A DNA stretch of 52,976 bases from a phage (GCA_014691105.1 GCA_014691105.1_4891.1); one strand, 5' to 3'; counted from the first letter of the stretch, positions 31,657-34,339 are shown. Notes: a model not told the origin generated them from the letters alone. Translations and numbers: made by a program.

Positions 31657-32199
31657 ATGACTAAGCATAAGGTGTTCCGTAACTTTACCATGTACCATCC
31701 TGAGGTAACAGAAGAGAACGAGAACATTGTAAATGCTGGTGCAATCTTCCTCAAGGATGAGGAAGGTCGCGACTGGTACAATCTAGCAAAAGAGTTCGCT
31801 GTCAAATACGAAGGCGCAACGTTCTTGCAGGTAGATAAGAACGGAGTTGTAATTGCCGCACATACCGACCCGACTATGTTCCATCCTGTGGGCTGTGATA
31901 TGGTTGTAACGTACGACCCGCCTTTCAACATCTTCGAGACTGTTGGTGAATGGCTGTTCGATGGTAAAGAGTTTACGCTTAACGCACCAATGATGAAGGA
32001 GATTGCTCGTGAGCGTAAAGAACAAGCTCTGTCCATCGCTTCGACCAAGGTCAGTGTTTTACGCGACACAGTTGATAGTGGCAATGCTACCGATGAAGAA
32101 AAAGAGCTATTTGCTAAATGGCGTGATTACAGGATTGCTGTCAATCGTCTTGACATTAACCTTGGTTCCGCTATGGTTGTTCCACCTATGCCGGAGTAA
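31657..32199 (+). CDS. tail fibre assembly protein (Tfa/gpG-like), paralogue 1
   Basis: C-terminal WRDYRIAVNRLDINLGSAMVVPPMP resembles the Tfa tail W..YR..L.RVD.S.AP.I.WP..P; paralogous to the next gene. Confidence 0.6.
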   Translation: MTKHKVFRNFTMYHPEVTEENENIVNAGAIFLKDEEGRDWYNLAKEFAVKYEGATFLQVDKNGVVIAAHTDPTMFHPVGCDMVVTYDPPFNIFETVGEWLFDGKEFTLNAPMMKEIARERKEQALSIASTKVSVLRDTVDSGNATDEEKELFAKWRDYRIAVNRLDINLGSAMVVPPMPE

Positions 32200-32202
32200 A
32201 CC

Positions 32203-32706
32203 ATGCAACTGTCATTTTTCAACTTTACAGAATACAACCCACAAAGGACGGCGGAGACACTTCCGCTGATTAAGCAAGGCGTTGTATTCATCAAGGATAA
32301 CAACGGTAATGACTGGCGCAAGCTGGCTAAAGAGCTGGCTAAGAATAAAGAGCTGGTTCATTACATTGTTGTGGACAAGTACAATGCTGTTGCCGCGTAT
32401 GCTAACGATCCTACGCTACTGTTTCCTGTTAATTGCGATTTGCATATTGTTGAGTCTGCCCCTGTTGCTAAGTTTGCGGATTGCTATTACGAATGGTCGT
32501 ACGTTAATGGCAAGTTTGTTAAGCACTCTGAACTGCAGAAGGTGATTGCAGAAGAACGCCTGCAGGAAGAACAGGCTTGGGTTGAAGGACAACTCGACAC
32601 TGAAGAAGATGAGGAACGTATTATCGCTCTCCATAAATTCCGTGCCGATTTGTTGCTGCTTGTTATGTCAGATGCGCCGCATATCGACTGGCCTGTACGA
32701 CCGTAA
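32203..32706 (+). CDS. tail fibre assembly protein (Tfa/gpG-like), paralogue 2
   Basis: N-terminus NFTEYNP...FIKDNNGNDWRKLAKELA parallels paralogue 1; C-terminal HKFRADLLLLVMSDAPHIDWPVRP. Confidence 0.6.
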   Translation: MQLSFFNFTEYNPQRTAETLPLIKQGVVFIKDNNGNDWRKLAKELAKNKELVHYIVVDKYNAVAAYANDPTLLFPVNCDLHIVESAPVAKFADCYYEWSYVNGKFVKHSELQKVIAEERLQEEQAWVEGQLDTEEDEERIIALHKFRADLLLLVMSDAPHIDWPVRP

Positions 32707-32712
32707 CTAATT

Positions 32713-32754
32713 GCTACCAGCAAGCTTGTGCAGTTGCTGGTAGTGTTTCTTTTA
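32713..32754 (+). terminator. rho-independent terminator
   Basis: Stem GCTACCAGCAA / TTGCTGGTAG followed by TGTTTCTTTT. Confidence 0.6.
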
Positions 32755-32774
32755 CGCTTGAGTCGTGCTATAAT
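32746..32774 (+). promoter_or_regulatory. promoter-like element with TATAAT -10 upstream of the lysis cassette
   Basis: TATAAT at 32769-32774; weak -35 TTTCTT at 17-bp spacing. Confidence 0.4.
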
Positions 32775-32807: not shown

Positions 32808-33069
32808 GATGTTTGACTACAACGACAAGTCTTCCCTTATTGGACAGTTTGTGGCTTGGGTAACAATAACAGTAAGTACTTTATCACTAAGTGATTGGGG
32901 TACTCTTATCGGTATACTCAGTTCCTTGGTGATGCTGATTGTTGTTACGTATAACCAAACACGGCGAACCAAAATTATGTCGGATTATTACAATCGTAAG
33001 AAGCCGATAGAGGATGAAGTCGCATCGAAAGAAGAGGTGTTGCGTGAGTCTGAAATCAGCAGCGACTAA
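32808..33069 (+). CDS. holin (two predicted transmembrane segments)
   Basis: Track ORF 32728..33069 but the promoter lies inside it; ATG 32808 gives MFDYNDKSSLIGQFVAWVTITVSTLSLSDWGTLIGILSSLVMLIVVTY with two hydrophobic segments. Confidence 0.55.
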
Positions 33070-33589
33070 AGGAGGTTGCAGCGTGCTGGCTATTATCGGG
33101 CTTGTATTGTCGATGACTAGTACACATGTCCGTACTAATAAAGAAGGTCTTGAAATAATCGGTAATGCAGAAGGTTGTATGCGCAACCCGTATGTATGTC
33201 CTACTGGTTACTTAACAGTTGGCATTGGTAGCCGCATCTACAGCGATGAGCCCGCTGTACGGCGCGAAGGCCTGACAGACCAGGAGATTGCTGACCGCTG
33301 GGTCAAGAATATTCAAGAGGCCGAAAAGTGTGTTAACGACTGGTTTCACGGTAAAGACATGAACACCAACCAGTTCAGCGCCATGACCTCTATGGTATTT
33401 AACCATGGTTGCACTAGACTCCGTAAGAACAAGGATGGTTCACCTACCAAAATATATACTGCTGCTCGTAAACAAAACTGGACTGAAATGTGTAATCGCA
33501 TAACGGACTGGGATATGGGTGGTAAGTACAGGGGCTTGACAATACGTAAGCAAAAGGAAAAAGCGCTATGTCTAAAACCGGTGCAATAA
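33014..33589 (+). CDS. SAR endolysin (T4-lysozyme-like fold, P1 Lyz-like)
   Basis: N-terminal Gly/Ala-rich weakly hydrophobic segment AATKGGCSVLAIIGLVLSMTS, then catalytic region NAEGCMRNPYVCPTGYLTVGIGS; alternative GTG start at 33083 with a strong AGGAGG RBS. Confidence 0.7.
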   Translation: MKSHRKKRCCVSLKSAATKGGCSVLAIIGLVLSMTSTHVRTNKEGLEIIGNAEGCMRNPYVCPTGYLTVGIGSRIYSDEPAVRREGLTDQEIADRWVKNIQEAEKCVNDWFHGKDMNTNQFSAMTSMVFNHGCTRLRKNKDGSPTKIYTAARKQNWTEMCNRITDWDMGGKYRGLTIRKQKEKALCLKPVQ

Positions 33590-33897
33590 TTGCAGTTATT
33601 CTCGGCCTCGCCATTGTGTTCCTGTCTTTGTGGGTACGTGAGCTGAAAGGCGATATTACCGACCGCGACGGTATAATCAAACAGCTTAACAAGACTAATG
33701 GCGAGTTGTCTGCTGCTAATCAAACGCTGATTAATTCTGTAAAGGATGAACGTGAGGCCTCAGCCAAACGCGCCAGTAAGATAGCTGAACTTGAACAACA
33801 ACTGCGTGATAAGAAGGGTAAATATGACGAAGCGACAAAATATGATTCGTGCGCTAATACCGTTGCTCCTTCTGCCGTTCTTGAACTCATGCGCTGA
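33568..33897 (+). CDS. i-spanin (Rz-like)
   Basis: N-terminal transmembrane helix AIIAVILGLAIVFLSLWV followed by a coiled-coil region. Confidence 0.6.
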   Translation: MSKTGAIIAVILGLAIVFLSLWVRELKGDITDRDGIIKQLNKTNGELSAANQTLINSVKDEREASAKRASKIAELEQQLRDKKGKYDEATKYDSCANTVAPSAVLELMR

Positions 33898-34099
33898 TAA
33901 GCCTGAAGTTGTTTATGTTGATAGGGTAGTCAAGGTTTATCCGCCTGGTGCGTACCTGGTTAAATGCCATAAGCCTGAATTAACAGGTAATACATGGAAG
34001 GCAATAGGTCAGTTAGCTATTGAACGTGGAACAGCTCTTGATGATTGTGCAGACAAGATGGACAGCATAATTAACTGGAGTAACAAAGGGGCCGAGTGA
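33824..34099 (+). CDS. o-spanin (Rz1-like lipoprotein), overlapping the i-spanin in another frame
   Basis: MTKRQNMIRALIPLLLLPFLNSCADK: signal peptide with a lipobox-like LNSC; track ORF 33791..34099. Confidence 0.55.
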   Translation: MTKRQNMIRALIPLLLLPFLNSCADKPEVVYVDRVVKVYPPGAYLVKCHKPELTGNTWKAIGQLAIERGTALDDCADKMDSIINWSNKGAE

Positions 34100-34112
34100 T
34101 GGCCCCTTTATC
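34086..34112. terminator. bidirectional intrinsic terminator at the convergence point
   Basis: AAAGGGGCC GAGTGAT GGCCCCTTTA: GC stem flanked by A-run and T-run, between convergent genes. Confidence 0.7.
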
Positions 34113-34114
34113 TA

Positions 34115-34339
34115 TTAGCGTTTTCCTTTCAGCTCGTTATACTGCGCACATGCAGCACACAGCACTGTACCGGGTAAAAGCTGACGTCGTTTTTCTTCAA
34201 TGTCTTCCCCACACTGGTAGCACGTCAGCGGGCTTACTCCGGTGTATCTTACTCGGTTCGATAGTGCTGCGTCCCGGGCAACTTGTTCAGCTTCAGAAGC
34301 CATATCAGTAATGTCCGATGTGCGCATAGTCTCAATCAT
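34115..34339 (-). CDS. TraR/DksA-family C4 zinc-finger protein
   Basis: CYQC...x17...CAAC zinc-ribbon motif near the C-terminus; 74 aa. Confidence 0.65.
   Translation of the reverse strand: MIETMRTSDITDMASEAEQVARDAALSNRVRYTGVSPLTCYQCGEDIEEKRRQLLPGTVLCAACAQYNELKGKR

What the first reader, a model, noticed from the sequence alone, without database searches (positions are those of the whole stretch)
32808..34099. Lysis cassette with a SAR-type endolysin carrying P1 Lyz-like cysteines, a two-segment holin and overlapping spanins
The endolysin has an N-terminal Gly/Ala-rich weakly hydrophobic segment containing a Cys, and the catalytic region reads E-G-C-x6-C (NAEGCMRNPYVCPTG), the spacing I recall for the disulfide-caged P1 Lyz. 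The holin has two predicted transmembrane segments, which fits a pinholin. The i-spanin and lipobox-bearing o-spanin overlap in different frames. The endolysin start is ambiguous (ATG 33014 inside the holin, or GTG 33083 with a strong RBS), which changes whether the SAR domain is full length.
Basis: partly seen in the sequence, partly recalled or inferred. Interest (0 to 1): 0.5.

Follow-up and report, generated by a model that had tools for sequence, protein, structure and literature searches.

The report
P1-type SAR endolysin lysis cassette
This is the ordinary four-gene lysis cassette of a known Salmonella phage (BP63-like Rosemountvirus), whose cell-wall enzyme is a close relative of the phage P1 lysozyme that is switched on by a disulfide swap; the only new point is that most public records start this gene at the wrong codon.

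Summary
The window is a Rosemountvirus genome, 99.6% identical to Salmonella phage yarpen. The cassette is real: holin 32809-33069, endolysin ORF ending at 33589, i-spanin 33568-33897 and o-spanin 33824-34099.

The endolysin is a homolog of P1 Lyz (PDB 1XJT, E 1.6e-42, 47% identity). It has the E-x8-C-x5-T triad, the caging Cys and a Cys in the SAR segment. All seven P1 Lyz cysteines fall in shared alignment columns, and each is kept in at least 95 of 97 sequences.

ATG 33014 and GTG 33083 are each lost in related genomes. Only GTG 33044 is a start codon (GTG or ATG) with a Shine-Dalgarno site in all nine genomes compared. It gives a 181-aa protein with net charge +2 ahead of the segment, a 20-residue uncharged segment and Cys12. 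RefSeq and most records use 33083, which cuts off the Cys.

The holin has one strong and one marginal hydrophobic helix. It is homologous to the HP1 class II holin family (hhalign 97.7%), which is related to the phage 21 pinholin. Pinholin function is plausible but untested. The spanins are P2 LysB/LysC-like, overlapped in the +1 frame.

The SAR domain of this exact protein was already predicted for phage LPSEYT. The finding is ordinary and of low interest.

The parts
32712..32753 (+). Hairpin followed by GTTTCTTTT after the second tail-fibre-assembly gene. It is a likely intrinsic terminator separating the tail genes from the lysis cassette.
   Evidence: strand folding gives -21.8 kcal/mol, z = -3.46, with 1 of 200 shuffles folding as well. 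The simple terminator scan did not find it.
32766..32774 (+). Extended -10 promoter-like element TGcTATAAT, 35 nt upstream of the holin ATG. There is no good -35 hexamer.
   Evidence: Read directly from the sequence. It is conserved in BP63, the PP583539 record, PK3 and SE4, but absent from the more distant relatives L005-L009. The two-hexamer scan did not detect it. Its function is inferred only.
32809..33069 (+). Holin, 86 aa, class II-like. TMD1 is about residues 9-27 and is weakly hydrophobic and Ser/Thr-rich. A tight LSLSD turn follows. TMD2 is residues 30-48 and is strongly hydrophobic. The C-terminal tail is basic then acidic. It is possibly a pinholin.
   Evidence: PHROG 1350 holin 2e-15. 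Summed Hessa-scale values over 19 residues are +3.5 for TMD1 and +0.15 for TMD2, against +1.0 for S21 TMD2. The AF2 model has two helices, 2-24 and 27-79. hhalign to the PF16080 HP1-holin family gives 97.7%, E 1.4e-12.
33044..33589 (+). Endolysin, 181 aa from GTG 33044 (the preferred start). It is a P1 Lyz-type (class I) SAR endolysin of the GH24/T4-lysozyme fold. It overlaps the holin gene by 26 nt and the i-spanin gene by 22 nt.
   Evidence: Pfam PF00959 7.7e-20. P1 Lyz 1XJT E 1.6e-42. 47% identity to P1 Lyz. The AF2 model's best PDB match is 1XJT, TM 0.74. The start is conserved in 9 of 9 genomes.
33014..33016 (+). Alternative start ATG (191-aa product). Rejected as the conserved start.
   Evidence: The GAGG element abuts the ATG with no spacer. 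The codon is ACG in SE4, is followed by a stop two codons later in PK3, and the frame is closed upstream in L005/L006.
33083..33085 (+). Alternative start GTG used by RefSeq and most GenBank records (168-aa product lacking the SAR Cys and the basic N-terminus). Probably just Val14 of the protein.
   Evidence: It has the strongest SD of the cassette, -12.3 kcal/mol. However, the codon is GTA or GTT in PK3, L005, L006, L007 and L009. The four codons between the holin stop and this GTG vary only synonymously.
33071..33130 (+). SAR (signal-arrest-release) segment, residues 10-29: GGCSVLAIIGLVLSMTSTHV. These are 20 uncharged residues. They are preceded by MSLKSAATK (net charge +2) and followed by Arg30.
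   Evidence: Summed Hessa value +3.2 against -2.9 for the i-spanin TMD. G/A/S/T fraction 0.57 against 0.52 for the P1 SAR. The stretch length and N-terminal charge fall within the range of the 96 sequences measured.
33077..33079 (+). Cys12 (TGC) in the SAR segment, the counterpart of P1 Lyz Cys13. It would be the thiol that attacks the caging disulfide.
   Evidence: It shares a column with P1 Cys13 and is kept in 96 of 97 sequences. It lies 31 residues before the catalytic Glu, the commonest value. In the pairwise HMMER alignment it is offset by 3 residues from P1 Cys13.
33170..33217 (+). Catalytic and regulatory motif E43-G-C45-x6-C52-x5-T58. It holds the catalytic Glu, the caging Cys, the catalytic Cys and the Thr.
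   Evidence: These residues align with P1 Lyz E42/C44/C51/T57. E, C and C are kept in 97 of 97 sequences and T in 96 of 97.
33568..33897 (+). i-spanin, 109 aa. It has an N-terminal TMD (residues 5-23), a helical periplasmic domain and one periplasmic Cys. It is P2 LysB-like.
   Evidence: Pfam DUF2570 3.9e-07. PHROG 214 Rz-like spanin 4e-14. Summed Hessa value -2.9.
33824..34099 (+). o-spanin, 91 aa from ATG 33824. Its signal peptide carries the lipobox L-N-S-C (33881-33892). The mature lipoprotein has two further Cys. It starts inside the i-spanin gene in the +1 frame and runs 202 nt past its end (overlapped architecture).
   Evidence: Pfam LysC 8.7e-20. PHROG 456 2.3e-21. SD pairing is -5.8 kcal/mol for ATG 33824 against -1.6 for ATG 33842. 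The architecture classes are defined in PMC6139136.
34085..34109 (.). G+C-rich hairpin between the convergent lysis cassette and the DksA-like gene. It is a likely bidirectional terminator.
   Evidence: Fold energies are -18.7 kcal/mol on the + strand and -20.2 on the - strand, z = -2.65 and -3.42. It is annotated as a rho-independent terminator on both strands in BP63.

Best explanation
This is the late lysis cassette of a BP63-like Rosemountvirus. It probably works as a (pin)holin, SAR-endolysin and spanin system of the P1/HP1/P2 type. Only the homologies, motifs, hydropathy and start-codon conservation are shown here; every mechanistic step below is inferred from P1 Lyz, S21 and the lambda and P2 spanins.

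1. Translation of the endolysin most probably begins at GTG 33044. That codon lies 26 nt inside the holin gene, which suggests translational coupling. The product is 181 aa.

2. The N-terminus (MSLKSAATK, net charge +2, then 20 uncharged Gly/Ala/Ser/Thr-rich residues) would act as an uncleaved signal anchor. The Sec system would export the catalytic domain, and the enzyme would stay tethered to the energised inner membrane.

3. While tethered, the enzyme would be held inactive because the catalytic Cys52 is locked in a disulfide with Cys45.

4. The 86-aa class II holin would accumulate and, at its programmed time, depolarise the membrane. It has a weakly hydrophobic TMD1 and a strongly hydrophobic TMD2, and it is related to the HP1 and phage 21 holins. 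The holes are probably small (pinholes).

5. Depolarisation would release the SAR segment. Its Cys12 thiol would attack the Cys45-Cys52 disulfide, forming Cys12-Cys45 and freeing Cys52. This would complete the E43/C52/T58 triad so that the muramidase degrades the murein.

6. The LysB-like i-spanin and the LysC-like lipoprotein o-spanin would then disrupt the outer membrane.
For: Identity of the window:
- 99.6% nucleotide identity to Salmonella phage yarpen. 45 phage records cover at least 80% of the region.

Endolysin family:
- Pfam Phage_lysozyme 7.7e-20.
- The best solved relative is P1 Lyz, 1XJT, E 1.6e-42, and the alignment runs into the SAR domain.
- 47% identity to P1 Lyz. All seven P1 Lyz cysteines and the E/C/T triad share alignment columns, each cysteine kept in at least 95 of 97 sequences.
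- The AF2 model (pLDDT 83.8) best matches 1XJT, the active full-length P1 Lyz, with TM 0.74. R21 (3HDE) ranks ninth at 19% identity.

Start codon:
- Only the 33044 position is a start codon in 9 of 9 genomes (GTG in six, ATG in three), each with a Shine-Dalgarno pairing of -7.1 to -8.2 kcal/mol in the seven genomes where this was computed.
- The codons between the holin stop and 33083 change only synonymously: GGA/GGT, TGC/TGT, AGC/TCC, GTG/GTA.
- Gene calls for homologs at 65-87% identity begin at the equivalent MSLKS or MKLNS.
- The manually curated S144 annotation uses the same GTG.

SAR properties:
- 20 uncharged residues with net charge +2 ahead of them, as in P1 Lyz.
- The Cys lies 31 residues before the catalytic Glu. 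That distance is 29-31 in 88 of the 96 sequences measured.

Holin:
- PHROG holin 2e-15.
- Two helices in the AF2 model.
- hhalign to the PF16080 family gives 97.7%, E 1.4e-12. That family against S21 gives 86%.
- In a P2/HP1-like prophage contig, a PF16080 holin overlaps the start of a 181-aa lysozyme gene in the same way.

Spanins:
- Pfam LysC 8.7e-20 and DUF2570.

Mechanism in the model systems:
- PMC3556154, PMC9025707, PMC6116005.
Against: - In this phage the Shine-Dalgarno site before GTG 33083 (AAGGAGGT, -12.3 kcal/mol) is much stronger than the one before GTG 33044 (-7.1). Some or most initiation could therefore occur at 33083. No protein-level data were available.
- The SAR segment is less hydrophobic than that of P1 (summed value +3.2 against +0.46). 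It is also shorter, at 20 against 24 uncharged residues.
- In the pairwise HMMER alignment the SAR Cys sits 3 residues from P1 Cys13 rather than opposite it.
- Direct comparison of the holin with S21 is weak. BLASTP gives E 7e-4 for a single pair, and hhalign gives a probability below 10%.
- There is no similarity to the P1 pinholin LydD.
- The third residue of the S21 G40-S44-G48 motif appears not to be conserved. The motif is recalled from memory; the alignment is.
- P1 shows that SAR endolysins can also work with canonical holins.
No SignalP or TMHMM was available.
Confidence: 0.8

Rival explanations
1. The public annotation is right. Translation starts at GTG 33083 and gives a 168-aa enzyme without the basic N-terminus and without the SAR Cys. 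This would be a cytoplasmic, or only weakly membrane-associated, canonical endolysin that needs a large-hole holin.
For: This start has the strongest Shine-Dalgarno site of the cassette, at ideal spacing. It is the start in RefSeq BP63 and in the version seen on 75 contigs.
Against: - The codon is GTA or GTT in five of nine related genomes.
- The upstream codons evolve as coding sequence.
- The Cys that would be lost is kept in 96 of 97 sequences.
- The 168-aa form has no 19-residue window with a summed hydrophobicity value below +4.
- The AAAGGAGGT motif also encodes Lys-Gly-Gly of the SAR segment and contains the holin stop codon, so it has reasons to be there other than acting as an SD.
Confidence: 0.08
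2. Translation starts at ATG 33014 and gives a 191-aa protein with a ten-residue, highly basic, Cys-Cys-containing extension (MKSHRKKRCC) ahead of the SAR domain.
For: It is the first ATG of the ORF, and it is annotated this way on 14 contigs.
Against: - The GAGG element abuts the ATG with no spacer.
- The ATG is lost in SE4, is followed by TAG in PK3, and the frame is closed in L005/L006.
- The sequences measured carry a net charge of only +2 to +4 ahead of the uncharged segment.
Confidence: 0.03
3. Both GTG 33044 and GTG 33083 are used in BP63-like phages. This would give a full SAR endolysin plus a shorter Cys-less isoform that modulates lysis timing.
For: Both starts have usable SD sites in the window, BP63 and the PP583539 record.
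Against: The second start is absent from PK3 and from all more distant relatives, so any such role is not conserved. No data show a second product.
Confidence: 0.06
4. The endolysin part is as in the best explanation, but the holin is a canonical large-hole holin, or a one-TMD class III-like holin as stated for LPSEYT, rather than a pinholin.
For: - P1 Lyz works with the canonical holins LydA and LydC.
- TMHMM and Phobius found only one TMD in BP63, and the LPSEYT paper called the holin class III.
- Direct similarity to S21 is marginal.
Against: - The family is homologous to two-TMD class II holins of PF16080, which are related to S21.
- Phobius found two TMDs, and TMHMM an N-in C-in topology, in the S144 ortholog.
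- The AF2 model shows a helix break at the conserved LSLSD turn.
- TMD1 is weakly hydrophobic like the SAR-type TMD1 of S21.
- SAR endolysin genes usually adjoin pinholin genes (PMC9025707).
Confidence: 0.35

Closest known systems
Phage P1 Lyz (class I SAR endolysin; PDB 1XJT active form, 1XJU inactive form)
   Same: - 47% identity over 173 aligned residues.
- Same E-x8-C-x5-T triad, same caging Cys, and a Cys in the SAR segment.
- All seven cysteines share alignment columns.
- Net charge +2 ahead of the uncharged segment.
- It is the best sequence hit and the best fold hit in the PDB.
   Different: - The SAR segment is shorter (20 against 24 uncharged residues) and less hydrophobic.
- The SAR Cys lies 31 rather than 29 residues before the catalytic Glu.
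- The gene sits downstream of, and overlapping, a holin gene. In P1, lyz precedes the pinholin gene lydD, and two more holins lie elsewhere.
- It has never been tested experimentally.
Phage 21 R21 (class II SAR endolysin; PDB 3HDE)
   Same: An N-terminal SAR domain on a T4-lysozyme-fold muramidase. The fold match has TM about 0.64.
   Different: - R21 has an E-D-T triad, no SAR Cys and no disulfide control.
- It shares only 19% identity.
- It was not found by sequence search of the PDB at E below 0.001.
HP1-family class II holins (Pfam PF16080) and the phage 21 pinholin S21 68/71 (Pfam PF04971)
   Same: - Small size, two helices and a tight turn with a conserved S-x-W motif, followed by I-G-x-L-x-S-L in TMD2 and then a basic C-terminus.
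- hhalign to the PF16080 family gives 97.7%.
- Members of that family also hit PF04971.
- Reciprocal weak PHROG cross-hits between PHROG 1350 and PHROG 20.
- The holin gene overlaps the start of a 181-aa lysozyme gene in a P2/HP1-like prophage as well.
   Different: - The window holin itself is below threshold for every Pfam and NCBIfam holin model.
- It has no dual-start antiholin motif.
- It has a long acidic C-terminal tail.
- The family is small: only 4 representatives with E up to 0.001 among 1.8 billion proteins.
Phage P2 LysB/LysC two-component spanin (overlapped architecture)
   Same: - Pfam LysC and DUF2570 hits.
- The o-spanin starts inside the i-spanin gene in the +1 frame and extends beyond it, which is the 'overlapped' class exemplified by P2 (PMC6139136).
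- It has a lipobox plus periplasmic cysteines.
   Different: Sequence similarity is only at family level. The lipobox has Asn at position -2 (L-N-S-C).
Published orthologs: Salmonella phages LPSEYT (AWW14736.1), S144 ORF34-37, BP63 gp47-50
   Same: - The 181-aa protein is identical to the LPSEYT lysozyme. The LPSEYT paper predicted an N-terminal SAR domain.
- S144 was curated with the same GTG start, a two-TMD holin and +1-frame spanins.
   Different: - None of these papers discusses the P1-type cysteines or the start-codon conflict.
- RefSeq BP63 uses the 168-aa start and a truncated o-spanin.

Membership tests
P1 Lyz-type (class I) SAR endolysin | GH24 / T4-lysozyme-fold muramidase domain | tested here: met
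   Pfam PF00959 7.7e-20 against a cutoff of 22.3 bits. The AF2 model matches 1XJT with TM 0.74.
P1 Lyz-type (class I) SAR endolysin | Catalytic triad Glu-x8-Cys-x5-Thr, with Cys rather than Asp in the middle position | tested here: met
   E43, C52 and T58 align with P1 E42, C51 and T57. They are kept in 97, 97 and 96 of 97 sequences. The triad definition is from PMC3556154.
P1 Lyz-type (class I) SAR endolysin | Caging Cys two residues after the catalytic Glu (P1 Cys44) | tested here: met
   C45 aligns with P1 C44 and is kept in 97 of 97 sequences.
P1 Lyz-type (class I) SAR endolysin | Free Cys inside the N-terminal SAR segment (P1 Cys13) | tested here: met
   Cys12 is present if translation starts at 33044 or 33014. 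It shares a column with P1 Cys13 and is kept in 96 of 97 sequences. It is offset by 3 residues in the pairwise HMMER alignment. It is absent if translation starts at 33083.
P1 Lyz-type (class I) SAR endolysin | N-terminal weakly hydrophobic, Gly/Ala/Ser/Thr-rich signal anchor preceded by positive charge | tested here: met
   20 uncharged residues, G/A/S/T fraction 0.57, net charge +2 ahead of them, marginal summed hydrophobicity (+3.2).
P1 Lyz-type (class I) SAR endolysin | Sec-dependent export, membrane tethering, release on depolarisation and disulfide isomerisation | not testable with these tools
   This needs fractionation, energy-poison experiments and Cys-mutant experiments.
Pinholin (phage 21 S21 68 type) | Two transmembrane helices, N-in C-in, with a basic C-terminus | tested here: met
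   Two hydrophobic segments. AF2 helices 2-24 and 27-79. For the S144 ortholog, TMHMM gave N-in C-in and Phobius gave two TMDs. The BP63 and LPSEYT annotations report one TMD.
Pinholin (phage 21 S21 68 type) | TMD1 weakly hydrophobic (SAR-like) and able to leave the membrane | tested here: inconclusive
   TMD1 has a summed value of +3.5 and a G/A/S/T fraction of 0.45, so it is marginal like S21 TMD1. Exit from the membrane cannot be tested here.
Pinholin (phage 21 S21 68 type) | Sequence homology to the S21 family (Pfam PF04971) | tested here: inconclusive
   - No Pfam hit for the window holin.
- BLASTP against S21 gives E 7e-4 for a single pair.
- hhalign against S21 gives a probability of 5-10%.
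- The link is transitive only: window family to PF16080 family 97.7%, and PF16080 family to S21 86%, with Pfam cross-hits.
Pinholin (phage 21 S21 68 type) | Forms nanometre-scale holes and cannot release a cytoplasmic endolysin | not testable with these tools
   This is a functional definition (PMC6116005, PMC9025707).
HP1-type class II holin family (Pfam PF16080) | Match to the family profile | tested here: inconclusive
   The direct Pfam score is 12.8 bits, below the cutoff of 28.8. However, the profile-profile comparison with bona fide members gives 97.7%, E 1.4e-12. The window-family profile also finds members at E 1.2e-5 and 3.8e-4 among 1.8 billion proteins. It is a remote relative, not a scoring member.
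Two-component spanin, overlapped architecture (P2 LysB/LysC type) | i-spanin with an N-terminal TMD and a helical periplasmic domain | tested here: met
   TMD at residues 5-23, summed value -2.9. DUF2570 3.9e-07 and weak coiled-coil family matches. PHROG Rz-like spanin 4e-14.
Two-component spanin, overlapped architecture (P2 LysB/LysC type) | o-spanin with a lipoprotein signal and lipobox Cys | tested here: met
   The N-terminus reads MTKRQNMIRALIPLLLLPFLNS|C, and the residue after the Cys is Ala. Pfam LysC 8.7e-20. No LipoP or SignalP was available.
Two-component spanin, overlapped architecture (P2 LysB/LysC type) | o-spanin gene starts inside the i-spanin gene out of frame and ends beyond it | tested here: met
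   The genes span 33824-34099 and 33568-33897. The o-spanin is in the +1 frame, and the overlap is 74 nt. The definition is from PMC6139136.

The most novel reading that the evidence does not exclude
In BP63-like Rosemountviruses the endolysin gene is a dual-start gene. GTG 33044 would give the full P1-type SAR enzyme. The very strong internal Shine-Dalgarno site plus GTG 33083 would give a second isoform that lacks the basic N-terminus and the activating Cys. That isoform would stay cytoplasmic or permanently caged and would tune lysis timing, making it an 'anti-endolysin' analogous to holin/antiholin dual starts.
Probability: 0.05. Interest if true: 0.5.

Novelty: already known. Interest (0 to 1): 0.12.

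Why it matters
There is little here for biology. The cassette combines three well-understood modules: a P1-type SAR endolysin, a class II holin and P2-type overlapped spanins. It sits in a phage genus that is already sequenced many times, and the SAR domain of this exact protein has already been predicted in print.

The practical value is in annotation.
- Public databases carry four different N-termini for the same protein (191, 181, 168 and 158 aa).
- The dominant RefSeq/UniRef form (168 aa) removes the positive N-terminus and the Cys. By analogy with P1 Lyz, that Cys is needed to activate the enzyme.
- Anyone cloning this endolysin as an 'enzybiotic' from the RefSeq coordinates would express a truncated protein. 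Its catalytic Cys may stay caged if the disulfide forms.
- The RefSeq o-spanin is likewise cut at its lipobox.

The case also illustrates that start-codon errors hit lysis proteins especially hard, as Kongari et al. warned (PMC6139136).

Tried and rejected
- ATG 33014 and GTG 33083 as the conserved start. Both were rejected by comparing nine genomes.
- Direct homology of the holin to the P1 pinholin LydD. BLASTP found nothing.
- Direct homology of the holin to S21. The single-pair BLASTP E of 7e-4 looked promising, but hhalign of the family against S21 gave only 5-10% probability. Only the transitive route through the PF16080 family is convincing.
- Pfam and NCBIfam gave no holin or spanin family for the holin. 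NCBIfam gave nothing useful for any of the four proteins.
- The word-indexed protein search found only 7 holin relatives. The exhaustive profile search found only 4 representatives, so the holin family is small.
- The consensus promoter and terminator scan found nothing relevant on the + strand. The hairpins and the extended -10 element were found by reading and folding instead.
- The primary papers on disulfide caging (Kuty 2010, PMC2953681) and R21 (Sun 2009, PMC3075974) are not held. The mechanism statements therefore rest on secondary descriptions and on my own knowledge of Xu et al. 2005.
- The S144 mass-spectrometry table lists the endolysin (5 peptides, 28% coverage) but no peptide sequences turned up in the passages searched. 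It could not settle the N-terminus.
- Two literature calls failed on term length.
Full report
**What the window is.** The 1.8 kb around the finding is 99.6% identical to Salmonella phages yarpen and renfri and 98.7% identical to BP63, the type species of Rosemountvirus. Fifty-seven phage records match, and 45 of them cover at least 80% of the region. In RefSeq BP63 the same four genes are annotated as holin, endolysin, 'DUF2570 family protein' and 'Rz-like spanin'. They lie between two tail-fibre-assembly genes and a convergent DksA-like zinc-finger gene, with terminators annotated on both strands at the junction.

**Checking the observation.** The ORF list and the sequence show the following:
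- An 86-codon holin ORF whose ATG is at 32809. The finding's 32808 is one base off, which made the first family scans fail.
- An endolysin frame open from 33014 to the stop at 33587-33589.
- An i-spanin at 33568-33897.
- A +1-frame ORF ending at 34099 that contains MTKRQNMIRALIPLLLLPFLNSC.

Family scans confirm all four:

| Protein | Pfam | PHROGs |
|---|---|---|
| Holin | no significant hit | holin 2e-15 |
| Endolysin | Phage_lysozyme 7.7e-20 | endolysin 4.2e-48 |
| i-spanin | DUF2570 3.9e-07 | Rz-like spanin 4e-14 |
| o-spanin | LysC 8.7e-20 | Rz-like spanin 2.3e-21 |

The motif NAEGCMRNPYVCPTG is present as described.

**Endolysin: comparison with P1 Lyz and R21.**
- The best solved relative by sequence is P1 Lyz (1XJT, E 1.6e-42; 1XJU, 7.6e-39). 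The alignment extends into the N-terminal hydrophobic segment. R21 was not found at E up to 0.001.
- I took the P1 Lyz sequence from the P1-like phage RCS47. I aligned it with the window protein and 95 database homologs. Identity to P1 Lyz is 47% over 173 aligned positions.
- Numbering from GTG 33044, E43/C45/C52/T58 fall in the same columns as P1 E42/C44/C51/T57. E, C and C are kept in 97 of 97 sequences and T in 96 of 97.
- The other four P1 cysteines (C91, C118, C150, C178) also share columns with window cysteines (C96, C123, C150, C176). They are kept in 95 to 96 of 97 sequences.
- The SAR Cys12 shares a column with P1 Cys13. It is present in 96 of 97 sequences, and the exception is an N-terminally truncated database entry.
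- One honest qualification applies. In the pairwise HMMER alignment the two SAR cysteines are three residues apart.
- Measured from the catalytic Glu, the window Cys is 31 residues upstream and the P1 Cys is 29. The distance is 29-31 in 88 of the 96 sequences measured, and 31 is the commonest value.
- An AlphaFold2 model of the 181-aa form (pLDDT 83.8, pTM 0.83) has a helix at residues 14-24 and a T4-lysozyme-like body. Its best PDB match is 1XJT, the active full-length P1 Lyz (TM 0.74, 173 columns, 48% identity). Next is 1XJU. R21 (3HDE) is ninth at 19% identity.

The enzyme therefore belongs with P1 Lyz (class I: Cys in the triad and in the SAR domain). It does not belong with R21 (class II: E-D-T and no SAR Cys). 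This classification is described in a 2026 preprint and in PMC3556154.

**The start codon.** The frame holds three plausible starts:

| Start | Product | Shine-Dalgarno pairing |
|---|---|---|
| ATG 33014 | 191 aa | GAGG abuts the ATG, no spacer |
| GTG 33044 | 181 aa | AAGAGGT, 5 nt spacer, -7.1 kcal/mol |
| GTG 33083 | 168 aa | AAGGAGGT, 6 nt spacer, -12.3 kcal/mol |

I compared nine genomes: the window, BP63, PP583539, the Loughboroughviruses PK3 and SE4, and four metagenomic relatives whose endolysins are 65-87% identical. The results were:
- ATG 33014 is ACG in SE4. In PK3 it is followed by TAG two codons later. In L005/L006 the frame is closed four codons upstream of the 33044-equivalent ATG.
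- GTG 33083 is GTA in PK3, L007 and L009, and GTT in L005/L006.
- The 33044 position is a start codon in all nine genomes (GTG in six, ATG in three). A Shine-Dalgarno pairing of -7.1 to -8.2 kcal/mol was found in each of the seven where it was computed.
- The holin stop codon is always embedded in the endolysin codons Thr-Lys.
- The four codons between the holin stop and 33083 differ among genomes only synonymously (GGA/GGT, TGC/TGT, AGC/TCC, GTG/GTA). This is the signature of translated sequence.
- Gene calls for the closest non-identical homologs begin MSLKS... or MKLNS....
- The manually curated S144 annotation begins VSLKSTATKGGCSV..., with an annotated RBS.

From 33044 the N-terminus is MSLKSAATK (net charge +2) followed by 20 uncharged residues. 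This closely parallels P1 Lyz, which has MKGK, net charge +2 and 24 uncharged residues. From 33083, no 19-residue window has a summed hydrophobicity value below +4, and the Cys is gone.

I conclude that 33044 is the functional start, with about 80% confidence. The much stronger SD at 33083 in this particular phage is the main counter-argument. That sequence (AAA GGA GGT) also encodes Lys-Gly-Gly of the SAR segment and overlaps the holin stop, so it has other reasons to exist.

Public databases hold all four versions of this one protein:
- 168 aa on 75 contigs, including RefSeq BP63 and UniRef.
- 191 aa on 14 contigs.
- 181 aa on one contig (LPSEYT, AWW14736.1, identical to the window protein).
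- 158-aa forms in close relatives.

**Holin.**
- The 86-aa protein has a strongly hydrophobic segment at residues 30-48. Its summed Hessa-scale value is +0.15, against +1.0 for S21 TMD2.
- A marginal, Ser/Thr-rich segment lies at residues 9-27, with a value of +3.5. S21 TMD1 is not detected at all by the same criterion.
- This explains the conflicting published statements: one TMD in BP63, 'nominally class III' in LPSEYT, and two TMDs with N-in C-in topology in S144.
- An AF2 model gives two helices, 2-24 and 27-79, broken at the invariant LSLSD turn. The pLDDT is 80-88 over the hydrophobic parts and 69.6 overall.
- No Pfam or NCBIfam holin model is matched.
- There is no similarity to the P1 pinholin LydD.
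- Against S21, a single BLASTP comparison gives 35% identity over 54 residues, E 7e-4.
- PHROG profiles cross-hit reciprocally: the window holin hits PHROG 20 at 1.5e-4, and S21 hits PHROG 1350 at 2.8e-3.
- However, hhalign of the family against S21 gives a probability of only 5-10%.
- An exhaustive profile search of 1.84 billion representatives found just four proteins. Two of them (E 1.2e-5 and 3.8e-4) are scoring members of Pfam PF16080, the HP1 holin family. Both also match PF04971, the P21 holin S family: one scores above its cutoff and the other falls just below it.
- A profile of Pasteurellaceae PF16080 holins matches the window family at 97.7%, E 1.4e-12 over 51 columns. It matches S21 at 86%.
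- In a P2/HP1-like prophage contig, such a holin overlaps the start of a 181-aa lysozyme gene exactly as in the window. This was not checked directly.

The holin is therefore a remote member of the class II HP1/S21 holin superfamily. Its pairing with a P1-type SAR endolysin appears to be an old module. Whether it makes pinholes is a functional question that cannot be answered here. SAR endolysin genes usually adjoin pinholin genes, but P1 Lyz also works with canonical holins. There is no dual-start antiholin motif.

**Spanins.**
- The i-spanin (109 aa) has a strong N-terminal TMD (summed value -2.9) and a helical periplasmic part with one Cys.
- The o-spanin most likely starts at ATG 33824. 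SD pairing is -5.8 kcal/mol there against -1.6 for ATG 33842, and either start gives the same mature lipoprotein.
- The o-spanin has the lipobox L-N-S-C, with Ala after the Cys, and two further periplasmic cysteines.
- It begins 256 nt into the i-spanin gene in the +1 frame and ends 202 nt beyond it. This is the 'overlapped' class typified by P2 LysB/LysC (PMC6139136) and agrees with the Pfam LysC hit.
- RefSeq BP63 starts this gene at the TTG that encodes the lipobox Leu. That deletes the signal peptide.

**Transcription signals (inferred only).**
- A hairpin followed by a T-rich tract at 32712-32753 (z = -3.46) follows the tail-fibre-assembly genes.
- A G+C-rich hairpin at 34085-34109 folds well on both strands.
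- An extended -10 element, TGcTATAAT, at 32766-32774 precedes the holin. It is conserved in the closer relatives only.
- The simple consensus scan saw none of these.

**Mechanism.** Shown here are the homologies, the motifs, the hydropathy, the start-codon conservation and the gene arrangement. Inferred by analogy with P1 Lyz, S21 and the lambda and P2 spanins is the following sequence of events:
1. Sec-dependent export of the endolysin, tethered by its SAR segment.
2. Inactivity while tethered, because Cys52 is locked to Cys45.
3. Holin-triggered depolarisation of the membrane.
4. Release of the SAR segment.
5. Attack of Cys12 on the Cys45-Cys52 disulfide, freeing Cys52 and completing the E/C/T triad.
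6. Degradation of the murein.
7. Disruption of the outer membrane by the spanins.

**Novelty.** There is none of substance. The phage, the genes and the exact 181-aa protein are public. The LPSEYT paper predicted the N-terminal SAR domain. The S144 curators noted the P1 SAR-endolysin hit and used the 33044-equivalent start. One GenBank record labels the protein 'SAR-endolysin', though with the short start. What I did not find in the papers I read is an explicit statement that the P1-type cysteine set is conserved in this genus, or that the RefSeq start removes the regulatory Cys. That is an annotation correction, not a discovery.

Noticed in passing
window 33881-34099 (BP63 NC_031250.1 33477-33695): RefSeq BP63 annotates the o-spanin from the TTG that encodes the lipobox Leu. 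The annotated product therefore lacks its whole signal peptide. The i-spanin is labelled only 'DUF2570 family protein'. In the records inspected, SE4 annotates only a short downstream fragment of the o-spanin, and PK3 starts it too far upstream.
   Followed up: partly
window 33014-33589: Public databases hold four different N-termini for this one endolysin: 191, 181, 168 and 158 aa. The 168-aa form dominates, with 75 contigs including RefSeq and UniRef.
   Followed up: yes
L002 (PP583539.1, 'Listeria phage 220426122051'): A Rosemountvirus genome with a 99.5% identical endolysin and a Gram-negative-type spanin pair is deposited with Listeria monocytogenes as host. An outer-membrane lipoprotein spanin makes no sense in a Gram-positive host, so the host label is probably wrong.
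   Followed up: no
window 31657-32199 and 32203-32706: Two tandem tail-fibre-assembly genes lie directly upstream of the cassette. They are paralogs: 38% identity over 121 residues, E 7e-25.
   Followed up: partly
window 34115-34339 (- strand) and L011 3821-4039: A DksA/TraR-type zinc-finger gene lies next to the lysis genes both in the window (convergent) and in a P2/HP1-like Pasteurellaceae prophage contig (same strand, after the lysis genes). It is also next to the lysis genes in the metagenomic relatives L005/L006. I did not examine whether this linkage means anything.
   Followed up: no
PMC7432712, Table 2 and supplement (phage S144 ORF35-37): Mass spectrometry of S144 particle preparations detected the endolysin (5 peptides, 28% coverage) and both spanins. 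This is presumably carry-over from lysates. The peptide list could settle the N-terminus but did not turn up in the passages searched.
   Followed up: partly
window 32766-32774: A perfect extended -10 element (TGcTATAAT) without a recognisable -35 hexamer sits 35 nt upstream of the holin ATG. It is conserved in Rosemountvirus and Loughboroughvirus genomes but absent from more distant relatives. The lysis cassette may have its own promoter, separate from the tail operon.
   Followed up: partly
window 1-52976: No tRNA or tmRNA genes are present anywhere in the window.
   Followed up: yes
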